Assembly (NCBI RefSeq): GCF_006345805.1
Contig: NC_043011.1
Location: 7,006,001-7,070,000, forward strand
Direction: 5' to 3'
Origin: Octopus sinensis
Taxonomy: Eukaryota
Length of the DNA: 64,000 bases
Below are positions 11,298-62,504 of this stretch, one piece after another. The position numbers and the translations under genes are program-made. Below the pieces are notes generated by a model that was not told the DNA's origin, made no database searches, and saw only the letters and a list, made by a program, of their open reading frames with translations. Position 1 is the stretch's first letter. Each line of letters opens with the position of its first letter.

Positions 11298-11434
11298 TAT
11301 TGCCAAACATTAGCAATAGTAATTCAGTGCCTAGTAGAGTGGATTAGTGAGAGTGTCAGAGAGAGGGAGAGGGGAAGGCGTTAAAAATGTGGTGGTGAGG
11401 AAGCAGAATGATGTATGCAGACTTGACTAGGACA

Positions 11435-11665
11435 AGTCAGTTGTTGACTGCCATGACACTGCATCCTTTAAGGCCCTCATGTTTTCCGAAATCCGCCGAA
11501 ACTACACCTGGTTGTCCCCCTTCCATACTCATACACATATGTGTATGTCATGACTCATGCTCTGTTCTTTTCCTGACGCTTGTACATTACCCTATGTACT
11601 ATACATACACTTTAGATGAGTTGTTGTGCACCTGAGCACTGTACACAATGTTTTATTATTATTTT
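11435..11665 (+). mobile_element. CR1/L2-like LINE 3' end fragment
   Basis: Translates VVDCHDTASFKALMFSEIRR (ORF2 C-terminus-like) and ends GCACCTGAGCACTG..(TTA)n; the same terminus is seen on the - strand at ~61437-61510. Confidence 0.55.
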
Positions 11666-12020
11666 AATATTGGATGAAAAACCCAAAAATCTATGCATTC
11701 AAACACACACACATACATACATACACACACACATTGACTACATTTCATGATGTTTCATTAAAATATAGTTTTATAAACCTTCCCCTCTCTCTCTCTCTCT
11801 ATATATATTATACATATATATATATTATATATATATATATATATAATAATAAATATTAGGGAATGAATCCAAAATTACAGGGAAAAATCAGATTTAGGGT
11901 TAAATCCAATTTTATAGTAAAATATTATATAATATAATTCGAGACAAAACCACTATTTTAAAACCAAACAAGGAAAGACTTAATCAATACATAAAATTTT
12001 AATATAAATTAAATAAACTG

Positions 12021-12064
12021 CCACTACAAATGTTTCATGTCTGCTACCGACAATCTTCAGGTGG
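12021..12064 (-). ncRNA. Type I minimal hammerhead ribozyme (left arm)
   Basis: Exact reverse complement of 12300-12343. Confidence 0.75.
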
Positions 12065-12299
12065 ATTTTCGATCTTCTAATCAGTATCAAATTTTGAAAA
12101 ACATGAGGGCCTTAAAGGATGCAGTGTCATGGCAGTCAACAACCGACTTGTCCTAGTCAAGTCTGCATACATCATTCTGCTTCCTCACCACATTTTTAAC
12201 GCCTTCCCCTCTCCCTCTCTCTGACACTCTCACTAATCCACTCTACTAGGCACTGAATTACTATTGCTAATGTTTGATACTGATTAGAAGATCGAAAAT

Positions 12300-12343
12300 C
12301 CACCTGAAGATTGTCGGTAGCAGACATGAAACATTTGTAGTGG
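12300..12343 (+). ncRNA. Type I minimal hammerhead ribozyme (right arm)
   Basis: CCAC-CTGAAGA-T-TGTC-ggtagca-GACA-T-GAAA-C-attt-G-TA-GTGG: stems I, II and III with an intact core and GUA site. Confidence 0.75.
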
Positions 12344-12432
12344 CAGTTTATTTAATTTATATTAAAATTTTATGTATTGATTAAGTCTTTCCTTGTTTGG
12401 TTTTAAAATAGTGGTTTTGTCTCGAATTATAT

Positions 12433-12464
<32 letters not shown>

Positions 12465-12631
12465 ATATAGGATCTCCTTGCTTTTCATAAATTTAGGTTG
12501 TATTTTTGAAAAAAATCTTTTTTCCAAGTTAAGAATATGCGCTATGCATGCATGTGCATTATAAGTCAAATGTGTGTGTGCATGTGTGTGTGTACATATA
12601 TAGTTATAGATATACACACACACACACTTTT

Positions 12632-18448: not shown

Positions 18449-18900
18449 CGGCCACGAGTCGGATAGTGCTTTTTACGTACCACCAGACCAGGGATCCTGG
18501 CTGGTTCAATTCGATTTCGATTTCGATTTCGCTTGCCCCAACATGTCTTCACAAGCAAAGGGGGTTGGCAAGGGTGCCTGTCGTACGGTCGCATTGGAGT
18601 ATTTTACGTGCCACGGCCACGAGTCGGATAGTGCTTTTTACGTACCACCAGACCAGGGATCCTGGCTGGTTCAATTCGATTTCGATTCGCTTGCCCCAAC
18701 ATGTCTTCACAAGCAAAGGGGGTTGGCATGGGTGCCTGTCGTACGGTCGCATTGGAGTATTTTACGTGCCACGGCCCCGAGTCGGATAGTGCTTTTTACG
18801 TACCACCAGGCCAGGGATCCTGGCTGGTTCAATTCGGTTTCGATTTCGATTTCGCTTGCCCCAACATGTCTTCGCAAGCATGGGGGGTTGGGATGGGTGT
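18449..18900. repeat. ~160-bp tandem repeat (about 2.8 units) in the RTE 3' UTR
   Basis: Units start at 18449, 18614 and 18772 (CGGCCACGAGTCGGATAGTGC...). Confidence 0.9.
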
Positions 18901-18990
18901 CTGTCGTCGGATGAGGTTCTATATCGACTTCGCTTGCCTCAACCGGTCTTTGTGTCCAAGGGAGGAAAGGCATTCATAAGTGGGCTGGGC

Positions 18991-21875
18991 TCACTTGTCC
19001 TGCCTGGTCTTCTCACGTACAGAATATTTCCAAAGGTCTCGGTCTCTGGTCATTTCCTCAGTGAGGCCTAAAGTTCGAAGGTCGTGCTTCACCACACCTC
19101 GTCCCAGGTTTTCCTGGGTCTACCTCTTCCACGGGTTCCCTCAACTGCTAGGGATTGGCACTTTCTCACACACCTATCTTCATCCATTCTCGCCACATGA
19201 CCATACCAGCGCAATCGTCTCTCTTGCACACCACAACTGATGCTTCTTAGGTACAACATTTCTCTCAAGGTGCTAACGCTCTGTCGAGTATGTACACTGA
19301 CATTACACATCCATCGGAGCATACTGGCTTCATTCCTCACGAGCTTACGCATGTCCTCAGCAGTCACAGCCCATGTTTCGCTGCCATGTAGCATGGCTGT
19401 TCGTACACACGCATCATACAGTCTGCCTTTTACTCTGAGCGAGAGGCCTTTAGTCACCAGCAGAGGTAAGAGCTCCCTAAACTTTGCCCAGGCTATTCTT
19501 ATTCTAGCAGTTACACTTTCAGCGCACCCACCCCCACTACTGACTTGGTCACCTAGATAACGGAAGCTATCAACTACTTCTAGTTTTTCCCCCTGGAAAG
19601 TGACGGAAGTTGTTTTCTGCAGATTTTCGGAGGTTAATGCTCCCGAGCATCTGCCACATACAAAAACTATCTTCCCAGTTAGCCTACCTTTGACATTGCT
19701 GCACCTCTTATGTGTCCATAGCTTACACTGGGTACATCTTATAGAGTTTCTACCTACACCTTTTCTACAGATCGAGCAGGGCCATCTTCCTGAAGATATT
19801 TGTGGATTGTCTACCTTTCTACTTATTAGTACTTTGGTTTTAGCTAGGTTGACTCTAAGGCCCCTTGATTCTAAACCCTCCTTCCACACCTGGAACTTCT
19901 CCTCCAGTTCTGATAGTGACTCAGCAATAAGAGCAAGGTCGTCAGCGTAGAGGAGCTCCCAGGGACAGCCTGTCTTGAATTCCTCCGTAATTGCCTGGAG
20001 TACTATGATAAATAGGAGGGGGCTGAGTACTGAACCCTGGTGGACCCCAACCTCTACTTTGAATTCTTCTGTGTACATGTTGCCAACCCTAACCTTACTT
20101 ACGGCATCTCTGTACATGGCTTGCACAGTCCTCACCAGCCATTCATCTATCCCTAGTTTCCTCATTGACCACCAGATAAGGGATCGGGGGACCCTATCAA
20201 AGGCTTTCTCCATGTCAACGAAAGCCAGGTACAGGGGCTTATCTTTGGCTAGGTATTTCTCCTGCAGCTGCCTTACCAGGAATATAGCATCAGTGGTACT
20301 TTTTCCTGGCACGAACCCAAACTGCATCTCATCTAAACTAACTCTCTCTCTAATTAGTTGGGCTATGACCCTCTCCGTAACCTTCATTACTTGATCCAAC
20401 AGCTTGATACCTCTGTAATTATTTGTATCTAGGGCATCACCTTTACCTTTGTAGCAGTTGACTAGTATGCTGCTGCACCAGTCATTGGGTATGACTCCTT
20501 CGTGTATCACCTGGTTGACTATACGGGTGACTAGGTTATAGCCGACACTGCCAGATATTTTGAGCATCTCTGCAGTAATTCCTGATGGGCCTGGGGCTTT
20601 CCCTGTCTTCATGCTTCTAATTGCCTTAGCTACCACGGAACTATCAACTCGGATAGCTGGTCCCTCTGTAGGGTCAACATTCGGCAGACTCTCTTTATCC
20701 CATTCATTTTCCTCATTCAGTAACCTTTCATAGTGGCGTCTCCAAGCTTCTCTCTTGCATCCATCCTCATTTAGCGCAAGTGAACCATCCTCCATGCGAA
20801 CACATTTCTCTCCTACCACATCACGATTCTCTCTCACACACTGTCTTGCAACACGAAATACCTCAAGTCTTTCATCCTCACGGCGCAGGACATTGGCAAA
20901 TTTTCTCTTATCTGCTTCCCCTCTGGCTAGATAGACCTGTCTCCTAGCTTCCCTTCTGGCAGTCTGATACCCTTCCCTGCTACCACCGTTCTTCCAGGCC
21001 TTCCAAGCCTGTTTCTTTTGTCTAATAGCCCTGTCAACAATATTGTTCCACCACCACGTTATTTTGGGTCTTAAGGGGACTTTGCACCAGCCACAGATCT
21101 GGTCAGCGGCTTTCAGCAGGTTGTCCCTCAGAAACGTCCAGTTGTCTTCTACCCCATGTGTAGCTATACCCCCTTCCACTTCGTCAAAGGCTTCAAGTAA
21201 CATATCTCTAAATCTCTGTCCATTCGCAGGGGCTTTAAGCTTCCAGACCCTTCTTCTCCATGTTGGTCGTCTTCTAGTCGCCCTCTTAGTCCTGATCCTA
21301 AAGTCACTAACTACCAGTCTATGTTGTGGGGTGCATTCTTCGCCTGGGAAGGTTTTGGCATTTTTAAGCAGCCATCTTTCCCTTTTTCTGGCAAGGATGT
21401 AGTCGATTTGGCTAGTATGCCGGCCCGATCGGTAGGTGACCATGTGGCTTGTTTGTTTCCTGAAGTTAGTGTTGCAGACCATAAGACTATTCGCATCGCA
21501 GAACTCCAGCAGCCTGGTTCCCTCCTCGTTGCGGGAACCATAACCGTAGCCTCCATGTACGCCATGGAAGCCCCCAGCATGTCGTCCAACATGCCCATTG
21601 AAATCACCAGCCACAAAGAGAAGGTCCCTGTCGTTCGTCGATGAGGTGGTCTGCAGTAGGGTGTCATAGAAACTGTCTTTCTGTCCATCGGGTAGCCCTG
21701 GCTGAGGGGCATAGGCCGATATAATGGTTGCTAATCTATTATGAAGCACTATTCTAATCTTAAGTATTCTGTCACTTACTCTGATTACCTCAATTACTCT
21801 ATCTATCCATTTCTCAGCGATAATTATACCCACGCCACCAACCCCGTCAGTGTTCCCTGCCCAGAAAATCTTGTA
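18991..21875 (-). pseudogene. RTE ORF: APE endonuclease (N-terminally truncated), reverse transcriptase, PHD-type finger
   Basis: SAYAPQ, AGDFNGH, SQIDY, QHRLV (APE); NYRGIKLL, FVDMEKAFDRV, GVHQGSVLSPLLF, YADD (RT); GRGRPRKTW. A 2-bp insertion near 19095 shifts off the tail KHDLRTLGLTEEMTRDRDLWKYSVREKTRQDK*, which ends at 18991. Confidence 0.95.
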
Positions 21876-22362
21876 CCTGTGTCTAGTATCGTGTAAAAAG
21901 CTCTGAGTCCACTCTGAGGAGTGGTTGGTGTTAGGAAGGACATCCAGCTGTAAAAACCCTGCCAAAACAGACACAGTAGCCTTGGGTAGATTTTCTACCT
22001 GGCTGGCTGTCAACCATCCTACCCATTATTGCAAGGAAGATGGATGTTAAATGATGATAGATAGGTGTGTGTGTGTATATCATCCTTATCATTGTTTTAG
22101 TCTCTGCTTTTTCATGCTTGCATGGGTCAGATGGAATTTGTTGAGACAGATTTTTTTTATGGCTGGATGCCCTTCCAGTTTTCAACTTTCACCTGTCTCC
22201 AATGAAGGTAATATTTCCTTCAAGACCAGACGTGTTTTTTACAGAAGAATCAAAATGGACAGCATGTGCTTGATGGTGACATCCATTTACAAGAAGCATG
22301 GAGGCAGTAACATAAACATACACATTCACATATTCATCCATACGTGTGTCTATATATACATA

Positions 22363-43650: not shown

Positions 43651-45085
43651 ACATATATTCCCCACCATGTACCTTGTATATTCCCCACCATGTACCTTGT
43701 ATATTCCCCACCATGTACCTTATATATTCCCCACCACTTTACCTTGTATATTCCCCACCATGTACCTTATATATTCCCCACCACTGTACCTTGTATATTC
43801 CCCACCATGTACCTTATATATTCCCCACCACTGTACCTTGTTTATTTCCCACCATGTACCTTGTATATTCCCCACCATGTACCTTGTATATTCCCCACCA
43901 TGTACCTTGTATATTCCCCACCATGTACCTTGTATATTTCCCACCATGTACCTTGTTTATTTCCCACCATGTACCTTGTTTATTTCCCACCATGTACCTT
44001 GTATATTCCCCACCATGTACCTTGTATATTCCCCACCATGTACCTTATATATTCCCCACCATGTACCTTGTATAGTCCCCACCACTGTACCTTATATATT
44101 CCCCACCATGTACCTTATATATTCCCCACCATGTACCTTGTATAGTCCCCACCACTGTACCTTATATATTCCCCACCATGTACCTTGCATATTCCCCACC
44201 ATGTACCTTGTATATTCCCCACCATGTACCTTGTATATTCCCCACCATGTACTTTGTATATTCCCCACCATGTACCTTGTATATTTCCCACCATGTACCT
44301 TGTTTATTTCCCACCATGTACCTTGTTTATTTCCCACCATGTACCTTGTTTATTTCCCACCATGTACCTTGTTTATTTCCCACCATGTACCTTGTATATT
44401 CCCCACCATGTACCTTGTATATTCCCCACCATGTACCTTGTATATTCCCCACCATGTACCTTATATATTCCCCACCATGTACCTTGTATATTCCCCACCA
44501 TGTACCTTGTATATTCCCCACCATGTACCTTATATATTCCCCACCATGTACCTTGTATAGTCCCCACCACTGTACCTTATATATTCCCCACCATGTACCT
44601 TATATATTCCCCACCATGTACCTTGTATATTCCCCACCATGTACCTTGTATATTCCCCACCATGTACCTTGTATATTCCCCACCATGTACCTTGTATATT
44701 CCCCACCATGTACTTTGTATATTCCCCACCATGTACCTTGTATATTTCCCACCATGTACCTTGTTTATTTCCCACCATGTACCTTGTTTATTTCCCACCA
44801 TGTACCTTGTATATTCCCCACCATGTACCTTGTATATTCCCCACCATGTACCTTGTATATTCCCCACCATGTACCTTGTATATTCCCCACCATGTACCTT
44901 GTATATTCCCCACCATGTACTTTGTATATTCCCCACCATGTACCTTGTATATTTCCCACCATGTACCTTGTTTATTTCCCACCATGTACCTTGTATATTC
45001 CCCACCATGTACCTTGTTTATTTCCCACCATGTACCTTGTATATTCTCCACTATGTACCTTGTATATTTCCCACCACTGTACCTT
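43651..45085. repeat. 23-bp minisatellite, about 62 units (CCCCACCATGTACCTTGTATATT)
   Basis: Directly visible; variants TCCCACCATGTACCTTGTTTATT and a 24-bp CCACTGTACC unit. Confidence 0.97.
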
Positions 45086-45972
45086 GTGGCTATGTCCCCC
45101 ACGCATCTCCAACACCATATCTCTCTCTCTCTCTCTGTTACCAAGTATTTCCTCCACAATAAGACACTGATTTCTATCCCTGTTACACGTTCACCTCTCA
45201 AAGCTACCTTTCTCAGTACCACTCTCTCTCTCAGCCAAAGGGTCTTTGTCTTACAAGTTACTTGGTGACCTCACCAGTGCTGGTGCCACACAAAAAGCAC
45301 CCTCCTCACCCTAAATCCAATCCTCAGCAAGATGGGAGCAGAATGAGAGTTGACGAGAATGGTCAGATGCAATGAAAACTGCAATAGTTTAGCCATGTCA
45401 TTAGGCACCCTGGACCTCAGGGGTTAGGTGAACAAAAGATGGGGTTGTAGTTGATGAAGACAAACTTGATTTTATGACTTCAAGGATCAGACCCTGGTAC
45501 AGTGCACAGCTACAGCATGACACCCCGGTATGTGGTAAGGAGCAGAGATTGTGTCTGAGGGCCCCTTAGCCTCTGCAATAGTGATGGACGCATTCATTCA
45601 ATCATTTAAAATTGATGTACCTATATAATGATGTCTGATATTATTAAGAAGCCCATCATGTATGTATGCATGTGTGTGTGTATTTATGTCTATCTGTCCC
45701 GCACCAATGCTTGATAACAGGTGTTGGTATGTTTATGTCCCTGTAACTTAACAGTTCAGCAAAAGAGACCAATAGAATAAGTATCGGGCTTTTTTAAAAC
45801 AAGTGCTGGGTGGGGGTCGATTCATTCAGCTAAAACTTCTCCAGCTTGGTGCCTCACATGGCTGCAGTATAATGACTGAAGCAAGAAAAAGATAAACCTC
45901 AGTGCTAACCTGGATTGCAGAAGTGTGCCTCCACCTTCAACAATCGTCATTTTATAAACCCAGTCTTTCACC

Positions 45973-50319: not shown

Positions 50320-50562
50320 AATTAGAAAAAAAACACCTTTTATCAATTCAAAATGAACAATTAAATGACACCATCCAGAATATTACTTATAATAATTTTG
50401 AATTGATAAAAGGTGTTTTTTTCTAATTTTTATATATATATATATTATATTTTGTGAAATTTGATTTTGTATTTCTAAATTGAATTTTTCCCTGTAAGTT
50501 AGGAATAATATTCCCTCAAATAATTATTATATATATATATATACGCACACACACACACACAC

Positions 50563-61975: not shown

Positions 61976-62467
61976 ACACACACACACACATGAGCTCTCC
62001 TGTCATACATGAAATATCTCTTTTACTTGTTTCAGTCATTTAACTGTGGCCATGCTGGAACACCACCTTTAGTCGAGCAAATCGACCCCAGGACTTATTC
62101 TTTGTAAGCCTAGTACTTAGCCTATCAGACTCTTTTGCCGAACCGCTAAGTTACGGGGACGTAAACACACCAGCATCGGTTGTCAAGCGATGTTGGGGGG
62201 ACAAACACAGACACACAAACATACACACACACACACATGAGCTCTCCTGTCATACATGAAATATCTCTTTTACTTGTTTCAGTCATTTAACTGTGGCCAT
62301 GCTGGAACACCACCTTTAGTCGAGCAAATCGACCCCAGGACTTATTCTTTGTAAGCCTAGTACTTAGCCTATCAGACTCTTTTGCCGAACCGCTAAGTTA
62401 CGGGGACGTAAACACACCAGCATCGGTTGTCAAGCGATGTTGGGGGGACAAACACAGACACACAAAC

Positions 62468-62470
<3 letters not shown>
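61976..62470. repeat. 247-bp direct tandem duplication (flank + SINE A 3' half)
   Basis: TGAGCTCTCCTGTCATAC at 61991 and 62238; the units look identical and are bounded by (CA)n. Confidence 0.9.

Positions 62471-62504
<34 letters not shown>

What the first reader, a model, noticed from the sequence alone, without database searches (positions are those of the whole stretch)
11304..12438. Twin outward-facing hammerhead arms sandwiching an inverted capture of neighbouring DNA
Seen: two apparently perfect 166-bp inverted arms (11926-12091 and 12273-12438), each with an intact hammerhead pointing outward to a (TA)n tract. The left arm extends ~80 bp further. The 179-bp spacer (12098-12276) is the reverse complement of 11304-11485, ~600 bp upstream (one 3-bp indel, one substitution), with TTTG microhomology at the right junction. 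The captured piece spans a unique-DNA/CR1-fragment junction, which argues that it was copied from this locus. Inference: a Penelope-type integration with template switching onto local DNA or nascent RNA, i.e. a mechanism that creates local inverted duplications. A read-through transcript could form two alternative long dsRNA stems (arm/arm or donor/capture), candidate ADAR substrates, and would contain one sense ribozyme from either strand.
Basis: partly seen in the sequence, partly recalled or inferred. Interest (0 to 1): 0.75.

Follow-up and report, generated by a model that had tools for sequence, protein, structure and literature searches.

The report
Penelope insertion copying neighbouring DNA backwards
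This is one copy of a young, abundant Penelope-type jumping repeat laid down as its usual two back-to-back arms, each with a predicted self-cutting RNA motif; here, as at a few other copies, a backwards copy of nearby DNA sits at the inner junction, likely patched in while the broken chromosome was being rejoined.

Summary
The 166-bp arms are identical. The spacer is a reverse copy of 11304-11485 and occurs nowhere else in the genome. The arms are a ~255-bp non-coding derivative of a Hydra-clade Penelope-like element (PLE): its hammerhead-bearing repeat plus an 80-bp tail, inserted in (TA)n. The back-to-back pair is the family norm (118 of 150 loci) and a published PLE layout; this scan noted it before on other DNA. 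The capture is rare but recurrent. It occurs at 4 of 144 non-redundant loci, this one included, as six pieces of 68-180 bp from up to 1.7 kb away, all inverted. Best model: both nicked strands prime reverse transcription, and a cDNA end that fails to anneal folds back on nearby DNA before joining. Four pieces fit fold-back on the same strand; two do not. Rivals are a homologue or nascent RNA as template, or later repair of the palindrome. Templated insertions are known for LINE-1 and break repair; three searches found no locally mapped case for PLEs. No listed contig spans the junctions, and transcription and editing are untested.

The parts
11304..11485 (+). Donor of the captured piece: 132 bp single-copy DNA plus the first 50 bp of a LINE-like 3' fragment
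   Evidence: 3-bp deletion allele at this place in contigs of runs X2 and X3
11436..11660 (+). 5'-truncated CR1/L2-like LINE 3' end (clade recalled from motif, not tested)
   Evidence: (loose ends)
11800..11858 (.). (TA)n target tract at the long arm's 3' end (overlaps the arm's TA-rich end)
11846..12098 (-). Long arm: mini Penelope-like element positions 1-253 (repeat with hammerhead plus 80-bp tail)
   Evidence: 99% identical to other copies, 85-91% to the repeat before and after the RT-endonuclease ORF
11846..11925 (-). Tail (element 174-253); in coding copies it runs on into the ORF start
12021..12064 (-). Type I minimal hammerhead motif, predicted cut after 12025
12098..12276 (-). Captured inverted copy of 11304-11485
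12273..12276 (+). TTTG microhomology shared by capture and short arm
12273..12438 (+). Short arm: element positions 8-173, no tail
12300..12343 (+). Type I minimal hammerhead motif, predicted cut after 12339
12428..12469 (.). (TA)n target tract at the short arm's 3' end; shares an interrupted TA run with the left tract (possible target duplication, not provable in a microsatellite)
   Evidence: (family D4)

Best explanation
This is a back-to-back insertion of a non-coding mini Penelope-like element of the Hydra clade, and its spacer is a locally templated inverted insertion that likely arose during integration, when one cDNA end folded back on nearby DNA. Steps: (1, inferred) The RT/GIY-YIG protein of the coding partner cuts both strands of a (TA)n tract. 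(2, inferred; end points shown) Each 3' end primes on element RNA, one at position 253 and one at 173, giving a long and a short arm that grow towards each other. (3, inferred; junctions shown) The two cDNA ends are copies of the same RNA end, so they can join only through short self-complementary sequence such as TCAAAATTTGA or other microhomology. (4, inferred) Here the long-arm cDNA (window + strand) instead annealed through 1-3 nt to its own strand at 11485, exposed by resection, and copied about 180 nt away from the break. It let go at TTTG, which paired with the CAAA end of the other cDNA. Which polymerase did step 4 (the element's RT or a host repair enzyme such as Pol theta or delta) is not determined. 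The product is likely a mutational scar without a function.
For: Family: 736 exact motif hits, 0 for the control. 118 of 150 loci are pairs, and 110 of 118 have (TA)4 at both outer ends. The arm is the repeat flanking an RT-endonuclease ORF with Hydra motifs. A purified PLE protein cuts and extends both strands and starts at two RNA sites that define the tail (PMC11167929). Arms of a pair share 46 substitutions against 2.6 expected from shuffled partners (maximum 17 in 1000; 85 pairs); this window's arms share G80A. In 15 of 105 pairs the short arm reaches over 15 nt further 5' than the long arm, so it cannot be a simple copy of it. 31 of 117 pairs join on the 11-nt near-palindrome (28 of them in a set chosen by that motif, 3 of 47 in the unbiased set). 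Local captures at the inner junction: window, L104, L085 and L103, six pieces, all inverted. The window, L104 and both L103 pieces lie on the side and in the direction that same-strand fold-back predicts. L103 has no second arm, so capture does not need a palindrome. Young local duplicates also start at 11 of 288 outer junctions against 8 of 1182 other TA-tract sides (p = 2e-4; 7 inverted, 4 direct; L103 gives two of the 11). Fold-back inversions at breaks (PMC11724301 abstract) and templated pieces in LINE-1 insertions are documented.
Against: Both L085 pieces lie crosswise (the piece next to each arm comes from the other flank), which simple fold-back does not give. Captures differ from donors more than arms differ from each other: 19 events in 743 bp against 119 in 9725 bp (p = 0.007; a few of the 19 are edge effects). 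The window's 3-bp deletion is an allele of the donor in two other runs, so the template may have been another haplotype, unless the assembly mixes haplotypes. At L032 both arms carry the same foreign 131 bp and that junction exists only there, which favours self-copying for the second arm at that locus. The numbers are small and this window was picked for its capture: 3 of 143 other loci. No empty allele was found in the assembly.
Confidence: 0.5

Rival explanations
1. The pair went in first as a near-perfect palindrome. It later broke at its centre (cruciform or hairpin cleavage, recalled mechanism) and host repair filled the break with a local templated piece.
For: Most pairs are palindromes of 100-170 bp with little or no spacer. 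Central damage could also give the uneven inner ends. Earlier notes describe similar inverted repair scars in this genome with no element named (untested).
Against: L103 has two captured pieces and only one arm. The window's arms are almost complete at their inner ends (positions 1 and 8) and are still 100% identical. Duplicates are also enriched at outer junctions.
Confidence: 0.15
2. A cDNA end invaded an intact copy of the locus (homologue or sister chromatid) through microhomology, copied about 180 nt and returned, as in synthesis-dependent strand annealing.
For: The capture carries the 3-bp deletion seen at the donor in runs X2 and X3, while the assembled donor and run X1 do not. Captures are about twice as divergent as arms. 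It allows the crosswise L085 pieces. It is the mechanism cited for LINE-1 templated insertions.
Against: Invasion should give both orientations, yet 6 of 6 inner pieces are inverted. A collapsed assembly can put the other allele at the donor.
Confidence: 0.13
3. The element's RT jumped from its RNA to a nascent host transcript crossing the site and copied it.
For: A + strand transcript gives the same geometry here, and one transcript could supply both L085 pieces. The single substitution is A>G in + sense, as editing would give.
Against: No host exon was found among 103 of 140 ORFs scanned. Substitutions in the other captures are of mixed types. One A>G is no signal. No capture shows splicing.
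Confidence: 0.1
4. One continuous strand made everything: cDNA of the long arm, fold-back on the flank, then a second fold-back at TTTG onto the cDNA itself to make the short arm.
For: It explains the 100% identity, the shared G80A and the TTTG junction, and the duplicated chimeric junction at L032. Self-priming was proposed for PLE inverted junctions (PMC3846280).
Against: It fails for L104 and for the 15 of 105 pairs whose short arm reaches further 5'. Solo copies ending at 173 show priming there on its own.
Confidence: 0.07
5. Assembly artefact from chimeric long reads.
For: None of the listed contig pieces of four runs spans either capture junction (the list was cut and repeats break contigs).
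Against: The capture differs from the donor by a natural allele. The junctions carry microhomology. Three other loci show the same kind of event with different donors. The locus lies on a 68-Mb contig.
Confidence: 0.05

Closest known systems
Hydra clade of C-terminal endonuclease Penelope-like elements (Craig et al. 2021, PMC8557442; outline, section 11, passages and supplement part 2 read)
   Same: Coding partner has DKT, YRDD, CxCX5C, a C-terminal GIY-YIG-like domain, CxxC and CxH; (TA)n targets; same hammerhead layout; Penelope-13_HM is listed with an inverted 5' copy and hammerheads on both strands.
   Different: KWK instead of RWK; unit about 5.6 kb against generally under 3 kb; the hammerhead differs from Hydra-1_Obim, so another family; the window holds a ~255-bp non-coding derivative; the passages read do not describe local captures.
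Adineta vaga Penelope elements (Arkhipova et al. 2013, PMC3846280; passages read)
   Same: Inverted repeat plus one-sided tail, palindromes at the inverted junction, Asn-rich insert in the ORF, host DNA captured between repeats.
   Different: In the passages read the captured DNA lies between ORF and 3' repeat or between solo repeats and is not traced to the insertion site's own flanks.
PAc Poseidon element in vitro (Frangieh et al. 2024, PMC11167929; parts 1-2 of 4 and passages read)
   Same: Both strands cut and extended, AT-rich target, two RT start sites bounding the tail, hammerhead not needed for insertion.
   Different: Other clade; joining of the cDNA ends and capture were not studied in the parts read.
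LINE-1 twin priming and templated insertions (bioRxiv 10.1101/2024.08.27.596794 and PMC11702581; passages read)
   Same: Two primers, cDNA ends joined by microcomplementarity, genomic pieces under 250 bp copied in (22 cases in a set of about 3,600 insertions).
   Different: LINE-1 templates are typically within 15 bp of the site; here 0.1-1.7 kb. Here both arms copy the same RNA stretch and the second start site is fixed.
Fold-back templated inversions at yeast breaks (Yu et al. 2024, PMC11724301; abstract and outline only)
   Same: Microhomology-primed inverted copy of DNA next to a break.
   Different: Mostly 5-34 bp and adjacent to the break; no retroelement.
Metazoan non-LTR retrozymes (PMC7229834, search listing only; bioRxiv 10.64898/2026.07.22.740005, part 1 of 5 read)
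   Same: Non-coding, type I hammerhead, PLE-derived.
   Different: Retrozymes are head-to-tail arrays with a hammerhead per unit; this family is mostly dispersed inverted pairs.

Membership tests
EN+ Penelope-like element (family of the arms) | Repeat flanks one ORF with RT and GIY-YIG endonuclease | tested here: met
   Arm 24-253 lies before and after the ORF in L125 and L128 at 89-91% identity. Domains were read from motifs; Pfam gave no significant hit.
EN+ Penelope-like element (family of the arms) | Inverted 5' copy and a one-sided tail | tested here: met
   118 of 150 loci are pairs; tail 80 bp against 30-40 bp in print
EN+ Penelope-like element (family of the arms) | Type I hammerhead motif in the repeat | tested here: met
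   Core and stems match the published table; stem II varies as A-U / U-A across subfamilies; Rfam negative
EN+ Penelope-like element (family of the arms) | Self-cleavage activity | not testable with these tools
   Monomer fold is not the minimum; such motifs cut weakly and as dimers (PMC4209133 passages); only 2 arm ends in the C1-C2 set fall at the cut site
Hydra clade | DKT in place of DKG; no GxKF/Y | tested here: met
   (DKT near the N-terminus in L123 and L124; the L125 frame starts later)
Hydra clade | CxCX5C linker; CxxC and CxH around the conserved E and N; no CX2-5CxxC | tested here: met
   3 of 3 ORFs have CxCX5C and CxxC; 2 of 3 have CxH
Hydra clade | RWK motif | tested here: inconclusive
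   KWK at the matching place in L123
Hydra clade | (TA)n target | tested here: met
   110 of 118 pairs
Hydra clade | Placement in an RT phylogeny | not tested
   No tree with published Hydra proteins was built
Non-LTR retrozyme | Two or more head-to-tail units each with a hammerhead | tested here: not met
   Not at this locus; tandem repeats of the unit or pair seen at only a few loci such as L079, L108, L152, L193
MITE / DNA transposon with terminal inverted repeats | Fixed internal sequence and fixed symmetric ends across copies | tested here: not met
   Inner ends vary, the arms are asymmetric, and the spacer is locus-specific
Templated insertion at a break | Copy of nearby DNA with microhomology at the junctions, donor left in place | tested here: met
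Templated insertion at a break | Dependence on a repair polymerase | not testable with these tools
   needs genetics or an in vitro assay

The most novel reading that the evidence does not exclude
Hydra-clade Penelope integration runs through a full double-strand break whose two identical cDNA ends must find complementarity, and the element's own RT scavenges single-stranded DNA or RNA up to about 2 kb away, always in inverted orientation. With thousands of young copies this would make these elements a standing source of local inverted duplications and long double-stranded RNA in an animal with heavy A-to-I editing, and would give the first genomic read-out of the unsolved end-joining step of PLE transposition.
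Probability: 0.2. Interest if true: 0.65.

Novelty: new variant of a known kind. Interest (0 to 1): 0.4.

Why it matters
How PLE insertions are finished after reverse transcription is open (PMC11167929 leaves those steps unvalidated). This young family offers hundreds of near-identical events whose junctions record that step: two fixed start sites, joins on a short near-palindrome, and a few percent of events with local inverted capture. That makes the question testable with phased long reads or the existing in vitro assay. The locus itself is probably a neutral scar.

Tried and rejected
Spacer as a standard element part: rejected. Twin arms as the novelty: rejected. MITE and tandem retrozyme: rejected. 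The U.U opposition next to the core as a defect: rejected, since it is usual in Hydra hammerheads. Pile-up of arm ends at the hammerhead cut: not found; 11 ends at position 82, 1 each at 74 and 75 in the C1-C2 set. L085's first piece as a distant repeat: rejected, since the local copy is 97% and the next is 89% or less. L066's 190-bp duplicate looks like the arms of another hammerhead repeat (read by eye) and was not counted. A second haplotype or empty allele in the assembly: none for the window or L104. Reads: four contig sets were laid; no listed piece spans the junctions, and TA tracts were skipped, so neither presence nor an empty site could be read. No RNA holder listed. Host gene: none among 103 of 140 ORFs scanned; short exons would be missed. 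Rfam for hammerheads and Pfam for the PLE ORF gave nothing. The protein atlas gave no answer. A direct genome-wide count of long-spacer pairs was not obtained; rates rest on two samples. Literature: searches found no paper on locally mapped capture in PLEs; the library lacks most subscription papers, and supplements of the LINE-1 preprints could not be seen.

Full report
Observation. The arms 11926-12091 and 12273-12438 are 166 nt and 100% complementary. The spacer 12098-12276 is the reverse complement of 11304-11485 with one substitution and a 3-bp deletion; TTTG is shared at the right junction and 1-3 nt at the left. Each arm holds an outward hammerhead motif. Rfam misses it, but it matches the layout tabulated for Hydra-clade elements. 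It is not the lowest-energy fold as a monomer, and related motifs cut weakly and as dimers (PMC4209133, passages). The window lies at G000 C15:7006001-7070000 in a 2.72-Gb genome, probably an octopus (my recall of its repeats; earlier scan notes say the same).

The family. The left arm finds 1559 candidates, and the 40 scored are 98-100% identical. A 32-nt motif has 736 exact hits, 0 for the control. I fetched all 72 loci behind the 100 listed hits (C1, C2), 74 further loci from a second motif at the 5' end (100 of 106 hits listed) and 8: 155 with the window. Five long or complex loci were set aside (L048, L060, L073, L074, L193) and six are duplicates, leaving 150, or 144 non-redundant. 118 of 150 are back-to-back pairs, and 110 of 118 have (TA)4 at both ends. 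In 105 non-redundant pairs one arm ends near element position 253 and the other near 173.

Coding partner. Locus L074 led to an ORF family (17,443 candidates, 150 scored). In long copies the arm's positions 24-253 lie before and after an RT-endonuclease ORF at 85-91% identity, and the 80-bp tail runs into the ORF start. The protein has DKT, YRDD, CxCX5C, VVY..YIG, CxxC and CxH, the Hydra-clade marks (PMC8557442 section 11). Pfam gave no significant hit and no tree was built. An inverted 5' copy with a one-sided tail is the textbook PLE layout, and Penelope-13_HM is listed with hammerheads on both strands. The twin arms are therefore known.

How the pair forms. A purified PLE protein cuts and extends both strands and starts at two RNA sites that bound the tail (PMC11167929). 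Here arms of a pair share 46 substitutions against 2.6 for shuffled partners (85 pairs), so they come from one source (or were converted afterwards). In 15 of 105 pairs the short arm reaches further 5' than the long one and in 24 the reverse, which fits two separate primings. 31 of 117 pairs overlap on the near-palindrome TCAAAATTTGA (3 of 47 in the unbiased set, 28 of 70 in the set chosen by that motif). L032 points the other way: both arms carry the same foreign 131 bp and the junction exists only there.

The capture. Six of 117 pairs have spacers over 50 bp: two are the element's own upstream sequence (L031, L040), one is foreign (L032) and three are local (window, L085, L104). The single-arm locus L103 has two local pieces at its 5' junction. 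That gives 4 of 144 loci, or 3 of 143 without this window, and six pieces of 68-180 bp from about 0 to 1.7 kb beyond the arms, all inverted. Only 36 of 2317 random flank points lie in such a duplicate. The donors of L104 and L085 are the best matches in the genome. Outer junctions are enriched too: 11 of 288 sides against 8 of 1182 other TA-tract sides, with both orientations.

Mechanism. In the window the long-arm cDNA is the + strand growing rightward. Continuing it into the spacer needs the + strand of the donor as template, read from 11485 to 11304, away from the break. That is the strand left single by 5' resection, so a fold-back. L104 and both L103 pieces fit the same rule; both L085 pieces are crosswise and do not. 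Direct-orientation copying from the far side would tend to end as a deletion, which may explain the inverted bias (inference). Against a purely same-chromosome template: captures differ from donors at about 2.6% against 1.2% between arms, and the window's 3-bp deletion is an allele of the donor in contigs from runs X2 and X3, whereas X1, which may be the assembly's own sample, matches the assembled donor. A mixed-haplotype assembly would give the same picture. Later repair of the palindrome, the homologue as template, an RNA template and self-copying remain open. Artefact is unlikely but not excluded, as no listed contig spans the junctions.

RNA. Folding 11304-12438 gives the 180-pair donor/capture stem and excludes the arm/arm stem on both strands, so the stems compete as proposed. 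On a + strand transcript this could leave the right hammerhead unpaired (speculation). No host exon was found among 103 of 140 ORFs scanned, and expression and editing were not tested.

Known and new. Templated genomic pieces occur in LINE-1 insertions, typically within 15 bp of the site, and fold-back inversions occur at yeast breaks (abstract). Host DNA capture by Penelope is reported without a local donor (passages). Searches found no report of local inverted capture in PLEs; subscription papers and preprint supplements were out of reach. Earlier notes of this scan describe the two-site pair and element-free inverted scars in this genome; none of the 16 shown describes a capture between PLE arms.

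Verdict. Real; known element kind and known class of scar; the recurrent, always-inverted, long-range capture at PLE inner junctions is a modest new variant. Interest 0.4.

Noticed in passing
L032:3705-4371 (G000:C1:8.144 Mb): Both arms carry the same 131 bp of an unrelated repeat with paired copies about 3.85 kb apart (best 98% at C12:79437094), joined at AGAAG. The junction occurs only here, twice, giving a near-perfect 600-bp palindrome.
   Followed up: partly
L035, L036, L047, L052-L054, L076, L083, L089: Arm 5' ends pile up at element position 82 (11 ends in the C1-C2 set), 7 nt past the predicted hammerhead cut, often followed by (TTTA)n-like stutter. Unexplained.
   Followed up: partly
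L123:3988-6564, L124:4048-6291, L125:3959-5974 (minus): The coding partner has a 90-110 aa, 42-47% Asn insert between thumb and endonuclease linker, as reported for rotifer Penelope. About 3 kb separates the ORF end from the next repeat, making a ~5.6-kb unit; a CA-rich stretch lies there in L074.
   Followed up: partly
L037, L105, L138, L097, L106 just past the long arm's (TA)n: Young local duplicates at the outer junction: a perfect 62-bp fold-back (L037), inverted 166 and 211 bp (L105, L138), direct 217 and 65 bp (L097, L106).
   Followed up: partly
family-wide, element positions 53, 69, 74: Subfamily variants in the hammerhead: stem II loop deletion (34 loci), T69A making the stem III region a perfect palindrome (23 loci), and cut site GUA to GUU (9 loci).
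   Followed up: no
window 19092-22025 (-): 978-aa open frame of an APE-RT LINE with a PHD/C1-like hit behind the RT, next to a 158-bp tandem repeat at 18449-18907.
   Followed up: no
window 43654-45087: 62 copies of a 23-bp minisatellite, 94% matches.
   Followed up: no
window 50435-50543: Old (76%) copy of the element's tail.
   Followed up: no
window 61976-62482: Perfect 247-bp tandem duplication; very young or an assembly effect.
   Followed up: no
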